This document shows positions 1 through 41,649 of a DNA stretch of 41,649 nt, piece by piece. Origin of the DNA: a virus (Duplodnaviria > Heunggongvirae > Uroviricota > Caudoviricetes); the IMG/VR virus record IMGVR_UViG_2718217885_000012, positions 1-41,649 of that record; one strand, written 5' to 3'. Made by a program: the position numbers and the translations under genes. Under the pieces are notes generated by a model. It was not told where the DNA came from. It saw only the letters and a program-made list of their open reading frames with translations, and did not search any database. Numbering within the stretch: position 1 is the stretch's first letter; each line of letters starts with the position of its first letter.

Positions 1-90
1 TCACTCTGCCAGATGGCGCAATGCCATCTGGTATCACTTAAAGGTATTAAAAACAACTTTTTGTCTTTTTACCTTCCCGTTTCGCTCAAG

Positions 91-105
91 TTAGTATAAA
101 AAAGC
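91..105. repeat. att core (left prophage junction; bacterial arm to the left, phage P arm to the right)
   Basis: Exact 15-bp copy of the sequence at 40306-40320; followed by tgaacg... then GGTATTAGTGACCTGTAACAGAGCATTAGCGCAAGG recalled from the lambda attP P arm. Confidence 0.85.
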
Positions 106-250
106 TGAACGTGAAACATTAAAAATCATTAATCTCAATGCATTACAATATCTTTAGTCTAAAAAATAGACTACATAATGCGACAAAACACAACATATCC
201 AGTCACTATGAATCAACCACTTAGATGGTATTAGTGACCTGTAACAGAGC

Positions 251-292
251 ATTAGCGCAAGGTGATTTTTGTCTTCTTGCGCTAATTTTTTG
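251..292 (+). terminator. sib/tI-like hairpin plus T-run in the att P arm (retroregulation site / intrinsic terminator)
   Basis: Stem ATTAGCGCAAG (251-261) pairs with CTTGCGCTAAT (276-286), followed by TTTTTTG; lies about 150 bp beyond the att core on the strand continuous with int transcription in the circular phage form. Confidence 0.6.
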
Positions 293-385
293 TCAACATA
301 CTGGGTTATCTGAATTTACAACCATGCTCAGTATCTCGATAAGCGCAGAGAAATGATGCAATGGTGGGCGGACTGGCTTGATGAA

Positions 386-526: not shown

Positions 527-2668
527 TCACTTAAAAGGAGTGTTTATCCTAACAACTCTCAAATAAACATCTCTTATATTTTCACCTCCATTTGGCCTTA
601 AAATTGTTGCTGAAATAACTCCACTTTGTGAAGCAGATACTGTTGCGTTATATACTAATGAACTATTGAATTGTTGAGCGTGTATTTGCCTTGATGTTGT
701 TTCAATTTGCTCTCCGGCTCTCATCATAACTGCATGTTCTGAAAAACACCCGCCAGCACCAGTTGTTGTTGTCGCTGTAACCTCAACTCTATAGAAATAC
801 ATAGCAAGCACACCTGAGTTTACTGAATTATTTGGAACTGGCACTTGTACGGTTATTGAGACTGGGCCGCTATCAACTCCTGTTGTCTGAGCACACCAGC
901 CAATTTCACCATTCTGAGATATTAATGTGAATATGCATCGATCTTTTGTCCCAGCGTTTACCTGATACGTTGTTGTATAGGTGGCGCCATAGAAATGCTC
1001 TACGGTTATGGCAGTACCGAAGTTCTCTCCCCAACCAGTCCATGAAGGCCAGATACTGGCATTGCTTTTAATGGCTACGCCATTATTGATGCACTTCAGA
1101 GACACTTTCCCATTATTACAAGAACTCAAGAGCACAGGGACTCCAGGAATGCTGTTCCTTAGTGTTATCTCAACATCCGGCTGCTCTGCGGTTACCAACA
1201 TTAATGGCTCGACTGTTCTTGGAACCGTATTGAGCGGTATGTTAATCTCCATGTCACGCACTCGCGTCCTTGTACCGCCACATAGAAATGCGCACACACC
1301 ACCTACATTAGCAGGAAGATAAAGTCGAACACCTTCAAAAGACAAATCAAAAACATCCGATTGAGAATTTGTGATGATTTGAATAAGGTGTATAGGGCCG
1401 TTAACATTTTCTCCCGTAAAATTACTCTTACTGGTGATGTTTCTGTAAATACCACCTGTTCCTGATACTTTTGCCGCAAACACTGGTGTGTCCGTCATGG
1501 TGCAAACCAAACCATCAACAACACACCCTGTTGACCCCGTGAGTTGTAAAGTTACATTGCAGCCGCCGTATCTGTTAGATAGAGGTTCTCCGAACTCACC
1601 ACAGTTTGTTATAGAACCACTAGTGTTATTGATATACATCAGGTGTGACGGACCATACGCACCGAAACTTTCGTCATGCCGCAATGTCCCATACACGTAC
1701 TCAATATTGCATCCTGCAAAGTTGTTAATAAGTGCGCATGAATAGTGTGTACAATAGATGTTAGAGAATAGAGAGCCTCTAAAATCACCCTCATAACCAG
1801 AAACAAGGAAGTCGTAGCGATTATCACTGGTTTCACCGACTGCCATCGCATTAATCAATTTGAAACGATACGCGTTTGAATTCATCCCGATAAAGCCACA
1901 GAACGCAGCTTCCCACGGGCGAGTAATTCCATAGCGAGTGGTTGTTGTGCCCCCCAAAGGATAGCCGCCTTTATAGACAGCATTAAATCCCATAATGGTC
2001 ACATCAGGATTCCTGTTCATGAAGACTAGAAATCCAGTTTTCTCATGAGTTATTCTAGCACCGTTAAAATCAATATATGCACCAGCGGGGGGAGTGATGA
2101 CATTTTCCTCATTCATCACCATACGATATGTGGAACCTCTCTTCATGAGGCATCTTCCAGTCATAATAGCATTAGTCACCGCCACTGTATCATCAGCTAC
2201 ACCATCTCCAATTGCTCCATATTGCTCTGGCGTTGCCCAATATGACAAACTATCCGCTACTGTACCGGCCAAGTATCCAATTTTAGTTGCACCATCTTCT
2301 TCAGACAGCTCACTTCGAAATTGATCAGGGTCGTACTTCAGCACATTCGGAAAATAGAACTGCTGCACACCGTACGCATCATAAACAGCCATAGAATGGC
2401 CTTGCACAGTTACGAACTTGGCAATCTGTCCGTTATATACCGGATATCCAGCAGCGTTAATGATGATTGGTTGCGAAACAGGAACGTGAGAACCATCTTC
2501 GTTCTCCACATAAACCTGAATCTGGTTTTCAGGGTTTACCGGGTCAGTGTCAATTTTTCCGATATAAATTTTACCATTGGCATTTGCTTTAAACGAGCGA
2601 GCTAAAGTAAATAACTGACTTGGTTGTGAAACAACAACGTTGTATAATTGTTCTGGCATAATAAACAT
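527..2668 (-). CDS. Tailspike protein (P22 gp9-like N-terminal head-binding domain, divergent receptor-binding body)
   Basis: N-terminal ~120 aa (NVVVSQP...[26 protein letters not shown]...[15 protein letters not shown]...[10 protein letters not shown]) matches the P22 tailspike head-binding domain by recall; rest is Gly/Thr/Asn-rich, consistent with a beta-helix; last gene before the att site. Alternative start at the fourth codon. Confidence 0.85.
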
Positions 2669-38964: not shown

Positions 38965-39183
38965 ATGTACTTAACACTTCAGGAGTGGAACGCACGCCAG
39001 CGGCGCCCAAGAAGCCTTGAAACAGTTCGTCGATGGGTTCGCGAGTGCAGGATATTCCCTCCTCCGGTTAAGGATGGAAGAGAGTATCTGTTCCACGAAT
39101 CAGCGGTAAAGGTTGACTTAAATCGACCAGTAACAGGTAGCCTTTTGAAGAGGATCAGAAATGGGAAGAAGGCGAAGTCATGA
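38965..39183 (+). CDS. xis: Excisionase Xis
   Basis: MYLTLQEWNARQRRPRSLETVRRWVRECRIFPPPVKDGREYLFHESAVKVDLNRPVTGSLLKRIRNGKKAKS matches lambda Xis (72 aa) by recall; overlaps the int start. Confidence 0.95.
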   Translation: MYLTLQEWNARQRRPRSLETVRRWVRECRIFPPPVKDGREYLFHESAVKVDLNRPVTGSLLKRIRNGKKAKS

Positions 39184-40231
39184 GCGCCGGGATTTACCCC
39201 CTAATCTTTATATAAGAAACAATGGATATTACTGCTACAGGGACCCAAGGACGGGTAAAGAGTTTGGATTAGGCCGAGACAGGAGGATAGCAATCACTGA
39301 AGCTATACAGGCCAACATTGAGTTATTTTCAGGACACAAACACAAGCCTCTGACAGCGAGAATCAACAGTGATAATTCTGTTACGTTACATTCATGGCTT
39401 GATCGCTACGAAAAAATCCTCGCCAACAGAGGAATCAAGCAGAAGACACTCATAAATTACATGAGCAAAATTAAAGCAATAAGGAGGGGTCTGCCTGATG
39501 CTCCACTTGAAGACATCACCACAAAAGAAATTGCGGCAATGCTCAATGGATACATAGACGAGGGCAAGGCGGCGTCAGCCAAGTTAATAAGATCAACACT
39601 GAGCGATGCATTCCGAGAGGCAATAGCTGAAGGCCATATAACAACAAACCCTGTCGCTGCCACTCGCGCAGCAAAATCAGAGGTAAGGAGATCAAGACTT
39701 ACGGCTGACGAATACCTGAAAATTTATCAAGCAGCAGAATCATCTCCATGTTGGCTCAGACTTGCAATGAAACTGGCTGTTGTTACCGGGCAACGAGTTG
39801 GTGATTTATGCGAAATGAAGTGGTCTGATATCGTAGATGGATATCTTTATGTCGAGCAAAGCAAAACAGGCGTAAAAATTGCCATCCCTACAACATTGCA
39901 TGTTGATGCTCTCGGGATATCAATGAAGGAAACACTTGATAAATGCAAAGAGATTCTTGGCGGAGAAACCATAATTGCATCTACTCGTCGTGAACCGCTT
40001 TCATCCGGCACAGTATCAAGGTATTTTATGCGCGCACGAAAAGCATCAGGTCTTTCCTTCGAAGGGGATCCGCCTACCTTTCACGAGTTGCGCAGTTTGT
40101 CTGCAAGACTCTATGAGAAGCAGATAAGCGATAAGTTTGCTCAACATCTTCTCGGGCATAAGTCGGACACCATGGCATCACAGTATCGTGATGACAGAGG
40201 CAGGGAGTGGGACAAAATTGAAATCAAATAA
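39161..40231 (+). CDS. int: Tyrosine integrase Int
   Basis: 356 aa; MGRRRSHERRDLPPNLYIRNNGYYCYRDPRTGKEFGLGRD... near-identical to lambda Int by recall; catalytic region HELRSL...LLGH...Y present. Confidence 0.95.
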   Translation: MGRRRSHERRDLPPNLYIRNNGYYCYRDPRTGKEFGLGRDRRIAITEAIQANIELFSGHKHKPLTARINSDNSVTLHSWLDRYEKILANRGIKQKTLINYMSKIKAIRRGLPDAPLEDITTKEIAAMLNGYIDEGKAASAKLIRSTLSDAFREAIAEGHITTNPVAATRAAKSEVRRSRLTADEYLKIYQAAESSPCWLRLAMKLAVVTGQRVGDLCEMKWSDIVDGYLYVEQSKTGVKIAIPTTLHVDALGISMKETLDKCKEILGGETIIASTRREPLSSGTVSRYFMRARKASGLSFEGDPPTFHELRSLSARLYEKQISDKFAQHLLGHKSDTMASQYRDDRGREWDKIEIK

Positions 40232-40305
40232 TGATTTTATTTTGACTGATAGTGACCTGTTCGTTGCAAGAAATTGATAAGCAATGCTTTTTTATAATGC
40301 CAACT

Positions 40306-40320
40306 TAGTATAAAAAAGCA
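40306..40320. repeat. att core (right prophage junction; phage P' arm to the left, bacterial arm to the right)
   Basis: Exact 15-bp copy of 91-105; preceded by GCAATGCTTTTTTATAATGCCAACT (lambda P'-arm-like, 75 bp after the int stop); followed by CAGGCTTCA and ybhC. Confidence 0.85.
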
Positions 40321-40365
40321 GGCTTCAACGGATTCATTTTTCTATTTCATAGCCCGGAGCAACCT

Positions 40366-41649
40366 GTGAACACATTTTCAGTTTCCCGTCTGGCGCTGGC
40401 ATTGGCTTTTGGCGTGACGCTGACCGCCTGTAGCTCAACCCCGCCCGATCAACGTCCTTCTGATCAAACCGCGCCTGGTACCTCTTCTCGCCCGATTCTG
40501 TCGGCAAAAGAAGCGCAGAATTTCGATGCTCAACACTATTTTGCATCCCTGACACCAGGTGCTGCAGCGTGGAATCCTTCCCCGATTACCCTGCCTGCGC
40601 AACCTGACTTTGTTGTCGGCCCGGCGGGCACTCAAGGTGTAACGCATACCACGATTCAGGCGGCGGTAGATGCGGCAATTATCAAGCGTACCAACAAGCG
40701 CCAGTATATTGCCGTGATGCCTGGTGAGTATCAGGGAACGGTATATGTCCCTGCCGCTCCGGGTGGAATTACTCTGTACGGTACAGGTGAAAAACCGATT
40801 GATGTGAAGATTGGGCTTTCCCTTGATGGTGGCATGAGCCCTGCCGACTGGCGTCACGACGTCAACCCGCGCGGCAAATATATGCCAGGTAAACCAGCGT
40901 GGTATATGTACGATAGCTGCCAGAGCAAACGCAGCGACAGTATCGGTGTTCTCTGCTCTGCGGTCTTCTGGTCACAAAACAATGGCCTGCAACTGCAAAA
41001 TCTGACCATCGAAAACACGCTGGGCGATAGCGTAGATGCAGGTAACCATCCGGCGGTGGCACTGCGTACTGATGGTGACCAGGTACAGATTAACAACGTT
41101 AACATTCTCGGTCGTCAGAACACCTTCTTTGTCACCAACAGCGGTGTGCAGAACCGTCTGGAAACCAACCGTCAGCCGCGTACGCTGGTGACCAACAGCT
41201 ACATTGAAGGGGATGTGGATATCGTTTCTGGTCGCGGCGCAGTGGTGTTCGATAACACCGAATTCCGCGTGGTGAACTCACGTACTCAGCAAGAAGCGTA
41301 TGTGTTTGCACCGGCTACGCTGTCCAACATTTACTACGGTTTCCTCGCCGTAAACAGCCGTTTCAATGCTTTCGGTGATGGTGTGGCGCAACTGGGCCGC
41401 TCGCTGGATGTTGATGCCAATACCAACGGTCAGGTGGTGATCCGTGATAGCGCCATCAACGAAGGTTTTAACACGGCTAAACCGTGGGCCGATGCGGTGA
41501 TCTCTAATCGTCCGTTTGCGGGTAATACCGGCAGCGTAGATGATAACGACGAAATACAGCGCAATCTGAATGACACTAACTACAACCGCATGTGGGAATA
41601 CAATAACCGCGGCGTGGGTAGTAAAGTGGTTGCAGAGGCGAAGAAGTAA
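40366..41649 (+). CDS. ybhC: Host lipoprotein YbhC (pectinesterase-family putative acyl-CoA thioesterase)
   Basis: GTG start; lipobox LTAC; MNTFSVSRLALALAFGVTLTACSS... recognised as E. coli YbhC by recall; lies outside the right att repeat; stop at the window end. Confidence 0.85.
   Translation: MNTFSVSRLALALAFGVTLTACSSTPPDQRPSDQTAPGTSSRPILSAKEAQNFDAQHYFASLTPGAAAWNPSPITLPAQPDFVVGPAGTQGVTHTTIQAAVDAAIIKRTNKRQYIAVMPGEYQGTVYVPAAPGGITLYGTGEKPIDVKIGLSLDGGMSPADWRHDVNPRGKYMPGKPAWYMYDSCQSKRSDSIGVLCSAVFWSQNNGLQLQNLTIENTLGDSVDAGNHPAVALRTDGDQVQINNVNILGRQNTFFVTNSGVQNRLETNRQPRTLVTNSYIEGDVDIVSGRGAVVFDNTEFRVVNSRTQQEAYVFAPATLSNIYYGFLAVNSRFNAFGDGVAQLGRSLDVDANTNGQVVIRDSAINEGFNTAKPWADAVISNRPFAGNTGSVDDNDEIQRNLNDTNYNRMWEYNNRGVGSKVVAEAKK

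What the first reader, a model, noticed from the sequence alone, without database searches (positions are those of the whole stretch)
1..90. Integration site occupancy and a perfect palindrome in the left bacterial flank
The 90 bp left of the prophage are host sequence ending caag before the att core, and ybhC lies to the right, so the element occupies the classical lambda site with a lambda-type integrase. The flank contains a perfect 9-bp inverted repeat CCAGATGGC-GCAAT-GCCATCTGG at about 10-32, which may be a host terminator or protein-binding site now separated from ybhC by 40 kb of prophage.
Basis: partly seen in the sequence, partly recalled or inferred. Interest (0 to 1): 0.2.

Follow-up and report, generated by a model that had tools for sequence, protein, structure and literature searches.

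The report
ybhB mRNA end hairpin beside lambda attB
The palindrome is the RNA hairpin that ends the host bioA-ybhB message, and it lies just outside the textbook phage lambda attachment site, which here holds a P22-like prophage with lambda's integrase; this is ordinary and largely already documented.

Summary
A perfect 9-bp inverted repeat lies at 9-17/23-31 (not 10-32). The 15-bp lambda core TTAGTATAAAAAAGC occurs at 91-105 and 40305-40319. Joining 1-105 to 40320 onward gives 605 nt that are 100% identical to the empty site of MG1655 and C600.

The window starts at the base after the ybhB stop codon, so the palindrome belongs to the ybhB 3' UTR, not to ybhC. As RNA it forms an 11-bp stem (7-33, -19.4 kcal/mol). 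Two published E. coli K-12 data sets place the ybhB primary RNA 3' end 3-8 nt past this stem, at window 36-41, with almost no read-through (R = 0.97-0.98).

Natural variants keep RNA pairing: G.U wobbles and one compensatory pair. The stem has no U-tract, so it is not a canonical intrinsic terminator. It fits the class of protective stem-loops at Rho-dependent 3' ends.

Integration leaves the hairpin attached to ybhB. The integrase is lambda Int with 5 substitutions in 356 residues, and the rest of the prophage is P22-like. About 36% of complete E. coli genomes have this site split.

By-product: a roughly 40-nt block containing the att core is nearly invariant upstream of ybhC across genera.

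Verdict: ordinary, low interest.

The parts
1..90 (+). Host DNA: the ybhB-proximal part of the ybhB-ybhC intergenic region, i.e. the ybhB 3' UTR up to the B' arm of attB. Position 1 is the first base after the ybhB stop codon.
   Evidence: 100% identical to MG1655. In L001 the ybhB CDS ends at 2500 and the match starts at 2501.
7..33 (+). RNA stem-loop at the end of the bioA-ybhB message. The stem is 11 bp (7-17 with 23-33) and the loop is GCAAU. The perfect DNA palindrome arms are 9-17 and 23-31.
   Evidence: -19.4 kcal/mol, z -4.4 to -5.4. The pairing is kept in Escherichia variants. The same fold is printed in the TRS supplementary table.
36..41 (+). [quoted passage not shown] NC_000913.3 coordinates 807397, 807394 and 807392 on the minus strand correspond to window 36, 39 and 41.
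   Evidence: Term-seq, M63 glucose sheet: about 27,505 reads, class 'primary'. TRS termini 807391-807401 with R 0.97-0.98. Coordinates converted.
40..75 (+). Second, weak A/T-rich predicted hairpin. It lies in a C-over-G, T-rich stretch (37-90: C 12, G 6, T 22) that could serve as a Rho loading region. It is a prediction only.
   Evidence: No RNA 3' end is reported here.
91..105 (+). att core copy at the ybhB-side junction. This is attR (P-O-B') read in reverse orientation.
106..296 (+). Phage P arm. The core-proximal part (107-180) has diverged from lambda. The distal part is nearly identical to lambda.
244..293 (+). lambda-type sib/tI hairpin followed by TTTTTTG. In the lysogen it sits about 250 nt downstream of ybhB on the same strand.
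   Evidence: inverted repeat I1. One search shows it is identical to lambda. HK97 carries a 'sib retroregulation site' annotation under the match.
38965..39183 (+). xis (72 aa; 71 of 72 residues identical to lambda Xis).
39161..40231 (+). int (356 aa). It is lambda Int with S88N, H163P, E204K, A245T and I248V, and is transcribed towards ybhC.
40232..40304 (+). Phage P' arm (1 mismatch to lambda).
40305..40319 (+). att core copy at the ybhC-side junction. This is attL (B-O-P') read in reverse orientation.
40320..40365 (+). Host B arm and ybhC leader: 46 nt between the core and the ybhC GTG start codon.
40366..41649 (+). ybhC (outer-membrane lipoprotein, 427 aa), intact. The window ends at its stop codon.

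Best explanation
The palindrome is transcribed as the last structured element of the host bioA-ybhB mRNA. It forms an 11-bp stem-loop starting 6-8 nt after the ybhB UAA codon.

Most likely mechanism (inferred): RNA polymerase passes the hairpin and is released a short way downstream. Release is probably by Rho acting on the C-over-G, unstructured stretch at 37-90. 3'-to-5' exonucleases then trim back to the base of the stem. The stem blocks them, which fixes a sharp 3' end at window 36-41 and protects the message.

The hairpin lies 58 nt from the lambda att core, outside attB. A P22-like prophage carrying lambda's int-xis-attP-sib module has integrated at the core. That leaves the hairpin and the whole 105-nt ybhB tail intact. 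Integration moves ybhC 40.2 kb away and places it directly downstream of int.

Shown: the position relative to ybhB; the fold; the mapped RNA 3' ends with little read-through; the retention of pairing in variants; and the identity of the attB, attP and Int parts.

Inferred: co-transcription with bioA; Rho involvement; exonuclease trimming.
For: Position:
- The ybhB CDS ends at the base before window position 1, on the same strand.

Fold:
- -19.4 kcal/mol, with 0 of 200 shuffles folding as well.

RNA ends:
- Term-seq gives a 3' end at 807397(-), which is window 36, with about 27,505 reads and class 'primary' for ybhB. It is called only in M63 glucose medium.
- The independent TRS analysis lists ybhB primary termini at 807392-807394 with R = 0.97-0.98, where R = 1 minus read-through. 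It prints the same hairpin at -19.4 kcal/mol.

No U-tract:
- The tail is UCACUUAA, and the consensus terminator scan does not call it.
- This matches the class described by Dar & Sorek. Rho-dependent transcripts end immediately after stable stem-loops that lack U-rich tails, with C-over-G sequence downstream, and the stem-loops protect against PNPase and RNase II. Here the downstream stretch has C 12 and G 6.

Variation:
- O157:H7 C25>T gives G.U.
- A metagenomic C9>T gives U.G.
- A divergent Escherichia has C9-G31 changed to U-A.
- E. whittamii and E. albertii turn G8.U32 into G-C.
- The commonest polymorphism (16 of 119) is in the loop.
- 96.4% of cells are paired, against 27-44% when partners are slid.

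Linkage to ybhB:
- E. albertii keeps the hairpin although ybhC and attB are absent downstream.
- Other genera have REP-type hairpins at the same place.

Prophage and site.
Against: - Covariation statistics are weak. There are five distinct sequences and one double change, and 166 of 500 shuffles reach the same count.
- Rho dependence is untested. The bicyclomycin data set of Adams et al. was made in LB and has no entry for ybhB or ybhC.
- TRS ends at window 39-41 lie 6-8 nt past the stem. That is also where a weak intrinsic terminator would release.
- E. albertii has a genuine U-tract after the same stem.
- Co-transcription with bioA is inferred only, from gene order and from the 3' end being called in minimal medium.
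Confidence: 0.8

Rival explanations
1. The hairpin is a non-canonical intrinsic (Rho-independent) terminator. RNA polymerase itself releases the transcript a few nucleotides after the stem, despite the poor U-tract.
For: A stable GC-rich stem sits right after the stop codon. TRS ends at window 39-41 lie 6-8 nt past the stem, in ...CACUUAA, with R 0.97-0.98. The E. albertii orthologue has the same stem followed by UUUUGCC.
Against: Only 3 U occur in the 8 nt after the stem, and there is no A-tract upstream. The consensus scan does not call it. The Term-seq end at window 36 is only 3 nt past the stem, which is closer than polymerase release normally occurs (established knowledge of intrinsic termination).
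Confidence: 0.3
2. The palindrome is a dyad-symmetric DNA site for a host regulatory protein.
For: It is a perfect 9-bp dyad with a 5-bp spacer, in an intergenic region.
Against: The natural substitutions C25>T and C9>T break the DNA symmetry but keep RNA G.U pairs. A two-sided change keeps pairing, and the loop varies freely. The site is downstream of one gene and about 120 nt upstream of the next, and RNA ends map exactly at its base. No promoter consensus lies nearby.
Confidence: 0.04
3. It is a decayed REP element: a relic of the REP/BIME repeats found after ybhB in related genera. It is retained only because any stable hairpin is tolerated there.
For: Directly after the ybhB stop codon, Salmonella and Citrobacter have CTGTGCCGGATGGCG...CATCCGGC, where E. 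coli has CTCTGCCAGATGGCG...CATCTGG. E. coli differs from the GCCGGATG head at one base, and the matching change is present in the other arm. REP-type hairpins are common 'primary' 3' ends in the same Term-seq table.
Against: It is single-copy per genome at BLAST sensitivity. It lacks the CTAC/GTAG flank and is shorter than the REPs seen. Its stem is kept across Escherichia species and it marks a strong RNA boundary, so it is not inert. An origin from REP and a present role as a 3' hairpin are compatible.
Confidence: 0.3
4. Because the stem starts only 6-8 nt after the UAA codon, it interferes with the terminating ribosome and tunes YbhB output. This is what has been reported for REP hairpins within about 15 nt of stop codons (Liang, Rudd and Deutscher 2015, recalled from memory and not retrieved here). 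It would act in addition to 3'-end protection.
For: The distance from the stop codon to the stem is 6-8 nt. That is inside the mRNA channel of a ribosome at the stop codon (established knowledge).
Against: Nothing here tests it. The literature search did not retrieve the source paper.
Confidence: 0.15

Closest known systems
[quoted passage not shown]
   Same: A stable stem-loop lies immediately upstream of a sharp steady-state 3' end. There is no U-rich tail, and the sequence downstream has C over G.
   Different: Rho dependence and exonuclease trimming were not tested for this transcript. Its supplementary tables were not available to check whether ybhB is listed.
Canonical intrinsic terminator
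   Same: A GC-rich hairpin just after a stop codon with an RNA end a few nt downstream. The E. albertii orthologue has a U-tract.
   Different: The E. coli version lacks the U-tract and is not called by the consensus scan.
REP (repetitive extragenic palindromic) elements at mRNA 3' ends
   Same: It has the same position as REPs downstream of ybhB in Citrobacter, Salmonella and Enterobacter. The arms are similar (GCCAGATGGCG against GCCGGATGGCG), and both stabilise upstream mRNA.
   Different: It is single-copy, shorter, deviates from the head consensus and has no CTAC flank. The annotation check was uninformative.
Phage lambda attB / attP, Int, Xis and sib site-specific recombination module
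   Same: The 15-bp core and the B and B' arms are identical. Int is 98.6% identical to lambda Int, and Xis matches at 71 of 72 residues. The P' arm, P1/P2 region and sib/tI are nearly identical. Gene order is int-attL next to ybhC (gal side) and attR next to ybhB (bio side).
   Different: The core-proximal P arm (107-180) has diverged. The rest of the genome is P22-like (IME10, APC_JM3.2, Sf101), with a 713-aa ORF at 527-2668 (-) that looks like a P22-type tailspike (N-terminus compared from memory only).

Membership tests
lambda attB occupied by an integrated element | The 15-bp core GCTTTTTTATACTAA is duplicated as a direct repeat at both ends of the insert. | tested here: met
   Exact copies at 91-105 and 40305-40319. 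None are expected by chance.
lambda attB occupied by an integrated element | Removing the insert and one core copy restores the empty chromosomal site between ybhB and ybhC. | tested here: met
   605 of 605 nt are identical to MG1655, C600 and others. The 200-nt junction is intact in 3489 of 5426 genomes.
lambda-type Int/Xis/attP module | A tyrosine recombinase orthologous to lambda Int, with Xis upstream and overlapping. | tested here: met
   Int has 351 of 356 residues identical to PDB 5j0n/1z1g lambda Int. Xis has 71 of 72 identical. The int start at 39161 overlaps the xis end at 39183.
lambda-type Int/Xis/attP module | P and P' arms with arm-type Int sites, and sib/tI beyond att. | tested here: met
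   The P' arm has 1 mismatch. The distal P arm and sib hairpin are nearly identical to lambda 27540-27640. The core-proximal P arm has diverged. Protein binding was not tested.
Canonical intrinsic terminator | A stable GC-rich stem-loop. | tested here: met
   11-bp stem, -19.4 kcal/mol.
Canonical intrinsic terminator | A U-tract (at least 5 U in 8 nt) directly after the stem. | tested here: not met
   The tail is UCACUUAA. It is not called. The feature is met only in E. albertii.
Canonical intrinsic terminator | Factor-independent release in vitro. | not testable with these tools
   Needs in vitro transcription.
Protective stem-loop at a Rho-dependent 3' end | A precise steady-state RNA 3' end immediately downstream of a stable stem-loop that lacks a U-rich tail. 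| tested here: met
   Ends at window 36, 39 and 41 in two published data sets. The class is defined.
Protective stem-loop at a Rho-dependent 3' end | C-over-G sequence downstream (rut-like). | tested here: met
   Positions 37-90 have C 12 and G 6. This is a composition check only.
Protective stem-loop at a Rho-dependent 3' end | Read-through increases with bicyclomycin, and the 3' end depends on PNPase or RNase II. | not testable with these tools
   The only +/-BCM table held was made in LB and has no ybhB or ybhC entry.
REP element | A match to the GCC(G/T)GATG...CATC(C/A)GGC palindrome with a CTAC/GTAG flank. | tested here: not met
   The sequence is GCCAGATG...CATCTGG followed by TATCAC. 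That is one deviation in each arm and no CTAC. The consensus was taken from REPs seen.
REP element | Many dispersed copies per genome. | tested here: inconclusive
   The 85-nt query gives a median of 1 place per genome, but BLAST cannot detect matches of about 25 nt in 28 Gb. The absence of a REP feature in NC_000913.3 is uninformative, because a control REP locus also shows none.
Described RNA family (Rfam) | A match to a curated covariance model. | tested here: not met
   The only hit is a chance snoRNA match at E = 8.8.

The most novel reading that the evidence does not exclude
The roughly 40-nt block CTTCCCGTTTCGCTCAA(C/G)TTAGTATAAAAAAGCAGGCT contains the whole lambda att core. It may be a conserved cis-regulatory element of ybhC, either its promoter or the start of its leader.

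Evidence for this reading:
- The block is almost invariant 78-82 nt upstream of the ybhC start codon in Escherichia, Intestinirhabdus, Kosakonia and Pseudenterobacter, although YbhC is only about 70-80% identical and the surrounding DNA cannot be aligned.
- It travels with ybhC, not with ybhB.
- Almost no transcription passes the ybhB hairpin, so ybhC needs its own promoter in this stretch.

If this is right, lambda-family phages target a host regulatory sequence. Every integration replaces its upstream half with the P' arm and puts ybhC behind int. About a third of E. coli strains would then carry a rewired ybhC.
Probability: 0.3. Interest if true: 0.4.

Novelty: already known. Interest (0 to 1): 0.12.

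Why it matters
It matters little. The analysis confirms that the window is a lambda-attB lysogen. It also assigns the palindrome to a known class, the 3' stem-loop that ends the bioA-ybhB message. That RNA end is already listed in two published E. coli 3'-end maps.

Practical value: integration at lambda attB, by prophages or by engineered lambda-att insertions, leaves the ybhB mRNA end intact. The gene whose upstream context does change is ybhC.

The only item with some discovery potential is the cross-genus conservation of the extended attB block upstream of ybhC.

Tried and rejected
- Rfam scan of the ybhB-ybhC region found nothing.
- Consensus promoter and terminator scans of the empty site and of both junctions found no sigma-70 promoter between ybhB and ybhC, and did not call the hairpin as a terminator.
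- The NC_000913.3 annotation shows no REP feature here. A control REP locus (25.7-25.8 kb) shows none either, so this negative was discarded.
- The ybhC transcription start could not be obtained. The stored Cappable-seq table is truncated to the + strand and gave only two weak antisense starts. The dRNA-seq paper is not held. A literature search for ybhC regulation gave nothing useful.
- The TERMITe supplements do not mention ybhB.
- No supplements are held for Dar & Sorek or for Choe et al..
- RNAalifold on the ybhC leader gave only a weak helix (-4.2 kcal/mol) pairing the block with the Shine-Dalgarno region. It had no compensatory change and is not claimed.
- By-eye trials of sigma-E, sigma-32, sigma-54, sigma-28 and sigma-S consensus on the conserved block did not fit.
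- Chance palindrome was rejected on position, conservation and RNA-end data, not on window-wide statistics, which are unremarkable.

Full report
**Observation**

The first 105 bases read TCACTCTG-CCAGATGGC-GCAAT-GCCATCTGG-TATCAC...GCTCAAG-TTAGTATAAAAAAGC. The repeat finder reports a 9-nt, 100% complementary inverted repeat at 9-17 and 23-31 with 5 nt between the arms.

The 15-mer TTAGTATAAAAAAGC is the reverse complement of the lambda core GCTTTTTTATACTAA. It occurs exactly twice, at 91-105 and 40305-40319, with none expected by chance. The bases flanking the two copies differ, so the direct repeat is exactly 15 bp.

A perfect 9-bp inverted repeat with a 3-8 nt loop appears in 25 of 20,000 shuffles of the 90-mer. 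About 0.95 are expected somewhere in the 41.6-kb window and three are seen. The palindrome needs support beyond statistics.

**The integration site**

I joined 1-105 to 40320 onward and searched 5,426 complete E. coli genomes. The 605-nt construct is 100% identical over its full length to MG1655, C600 and many wild strains.

A tighter 200-nt junction is intact in 3,489 genomes. In about 1,935 genomes (36%) the match breaks at the core, meaning the site is occupied or otherwise disrupted. In a metagenomic sample, 62 of roughly 109 junctions were empty. The rest carried at least ten different P-arm sequences.

In MG1655 the match lies between ybhB and ybhC, both on the same strand. The ybhB coding sequence ends at the base immediately before window position 1, and ybhC starts 151 nt later.

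The phage side is lambda's recombination module:
- Int (39161-40231) differs from crystallised lambda Int at 5 of 356 residues.
- Xis matches at 71 of 72 residues.
- The P' arm has one mismatch.
- The distal P arm and the sib/tI hairpin (244-293) are almost identical to lambda. The core-proximal P arm (107-180) has diverged.
- Similarity to lambda stops at about 296.

The rest of the element is P22-like. The late and morphogenesis region is 95-96% identical to IME10, HZ41 and APC_JM3.2. The early region is about 98% identical to Sf101. A 713-aa ORF at 527-2668 (-) looks like a P22-type tailspike; its N-terminus was compared only against the P22 sequence recalled from memory.

In lambda terms, the left junction of the window is attR (bio side) and the right junction is attL (gal side, next to int).

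**What the palindrome is**

It lies in the 3' untranslated tail of ybhB. On the ybhB strand the RNA folds into an 11-bp stem (7-17 with 23-33) with loop GCAAU. The energy is -19.4 kcal/mol, and no shuffle out of 200 folds as well.

Two published 3'-end maps of E. coli K-12 place the end of the ybhB transcript at its base.
- Adams et al. (PMC7815308, supplementary file 1) list a 'primary' ybhB 3' end at 807397 on the minus strand with about 27,505 reads. The row lies in the M63-glucose sheet, not the LB sheets. With ybhB at 807433-807909, this is window position 36, three bases past the stem.
- The TRS study (PMC10687069) lists ybhB primary termini at 807391-807401, with peaks at 807394 and 807392 (window 39 and 41). 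It prints the same hairpin at -19.4 kcal/mol and gives R = 0.97-0.98. R is defined as one minus local read-through, so almost no RNA continues past this point.

The 3' end was called in biotin-free minimal medium but not in LB. This fits ybhB being the distal gene of the biotin-repressed bioA transcript. That link is an inference from gene order.

**RNA or DNA?**

Natural variation points to RNA.
- O157:H7 carries C25>T, which turns G15-C25 into G.U. That breaks the DNA symmetry but keeps the RNA pair.
- One metagenomic variant has C9>T, giving U.G.
- A divergent Escherichia (L005) has C9-G31 replaced by U-A, a two-sided change.
- E. whittamii and E. albertii convert G8.U32 to G-C.
- E. albertii has U17.G23.
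- The commonest polymorphism, in 16 of 119 metagenomic loci, is in the loop.

Across five distinct sequences, 96.4% of stem cells pair, against 27-44% when partners are slid. There is only one double change, and the shuffle control is not significant. The comparative support is therefore consistent with RNA structure but thin. All variants fold to -17 to -19 kcal/mol.

E. albertii keeps the hairpin even though ybhC and the att core are absent downstream. There the stem is followed by UUUUGCC. The hairpin goes with ybhB, not with ybhC or attB.

**Mechanism**

The stem is followed by UCACUUAA, and the consensus terminator scan does not call it. It fails the U-tract criterion of a canonical intrinsic terminator.

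It fits the class described by Dar & Sorek. Rho-dependent transcripts have sharp steady-state ends immediately after stable stem-loops that lack U-rich tails. These are followed by C-over-G sequence, and the stem-loops protect against PNPase and RNase II. Positions 37-90 here have C 12, G 6 and T 22.

I therefore favour release downstream followed by trimming back to the stem. A weak intrinsic terminator remains a serious alternative, because the TRS ends lie 6-8 nt past the stem and E. albertii has a U-tract. No bicyclomycin data exist for this transcript in the tables I could read.

**Origin**

In Salmonella, Citrobacter, Enterobacter and relatives, the same position is occupied by REP/BIME-type palindromes. 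Their left arm aligns with the E. coli arm directly after the stop codon: CTGTGCCGGATGGCG against CTCTGCCAGATGGCG. The E. coli hairpin looks like a shortened REP derivative with one matched change in each arm.

It does not meet REP criteria as tested. It deviates from the head consensus, has no CTAC flank, and gives one place per genome at BLAST sensitivity. The absence of a REP annotation is uninformative, because a control REP locus is also unannotated in this copy of NC_000913.3.

**Consequences of integration**

The hairpin and the following 72 nt stay attached to ybhB, so the ybhB mRNA end should be unaffected. In the lysogen, lambda's tI/sib terminator lies about 250 nt downstream on the same strand.

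ybhC keeps only the core and 46 nt of its own upstream DNA. Beyond that, its upstream DNA is now the P' arm and int, which is transcribed towards it.

It matters for ybhC's upstream region, not for the palindrome.

**By-product: the conserved attB block**

Wherever ybhC is present (Escherichia, Intestinirhabdus, Kosakonia, Pseudenterobacter, several MAGs), the block CTTCCCGTTTCGCTCAA(C/G)TTAGTATAAAAAAGCAGGCT is almost invariant. It lies 78-82 nt upstream of the start codon, or 167 nt in one MAG with an insertion. The rest of the spacer cannot be aligned, and YbhC is only about 70-80% identical.

The block stays with ybhC when ybhB is 330-450 nt away. Read-through from ybhB is minimal, so ybhC needs its own promoter in this stretch.

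I could not find a consensus promoter, a start-site record or a covarying RNA structure. This remains an open lead.

**Verdict**

The element is ordinary: a known integration site, a known recombination module, and an mRNA 3' hairpin of a known class whose RNA end is already in published tables.

Noticed in passing
window 73-105 plus 40320-40325 (empty site: L001 2573-2612): A block of about 40 nt containing the whole lambda att core is almost invariant 78-82 nt upstream of ybhC across several genera. The flanking intergenic DNA cannot be aligned and YbhC is only about 70-80% identical. The block travels with ybhC, not ybhB. It may be the ybhC promoter or leader, which integration would split.
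   Followed up: partly
window 244-293 (+): A lambda-type sib/tI hairpin followed by TTTTTTG, identical to lambda. In the prophage it lies about 250 nt downstream of ybhB on the same strand. Similarity to lambda ends at about 296.
   Followed up: partly
window 107-180: The core-proximal P arm has diverged strongly from lambda, whereas the P' arm, distal P arm, Int and Xis are nearly identical. Metagenomic junctions show at least ten different sequences at this position.
   Followed up: partly
window 106-40304: The prophage is a P22-like podovirus. The late region resembles IME10, APC_JM3.2 and HZ41, and the early region resembles Sf101 and mEp043. It carries lambda's int-xis-attP-sib module. 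A 713-aa ORF at 527-2668 (-) looks like a tailspike with a P22-type N-terminal domain; that resemblance rests on the P22 sequence recalled from memory.
   Followed up: partly
window 23303-23326: A perfect 10-bp palindrome, TATCGTTGTG-CTGC-CACAACGATA. On the minus strand it is followed by GTTTTCG, and it lies just downstream of a 207-aa minus-strand ORF (23662-24285). It may be a late-operon (tR'-type) terminator after a Q-like gene.
   Followed up: no
window 86 and 19, minus strand (U00096.2 coordinates 806570 and 806637, + strand): Two weak Cappable-seq transcription starts run antisense to the ybhB tail. The one at 86 sits 7 nt downstream of the -10-like TATACT formed by the att core on the minus strand.
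   Followed up: no
L086 250-300 (E. coli USDA-ARS-USMARC-51688): An IS3 element ends right at the ybhB stop codon and hairpin boundary, replacing ybhB sequence. The hairpin, and an attB occupied by the same P-arm type, are retained.
   Followed up: no
L004 2978-3090 (E. albertii); L006-L018 (Citrobacter, Salmonella): ybhC and the lambda core are absent downstream of ybhB in E. albertii, Citrobacter, Salmonella and most Enterobacter. ybhB is followed there by REP/BIME arrays and a convergent gene.
   Followed up: partly
window 40-75 (+): A second, weak A/T-rich predicted hairpin (AAGGUA...UACCUU) directly precedes the conserved CCCGTTTCG. In Kosakonia a different GC hairpin (GCCGATT...AATCGGC) abuts the same conserved sequence.
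   Followed up: no
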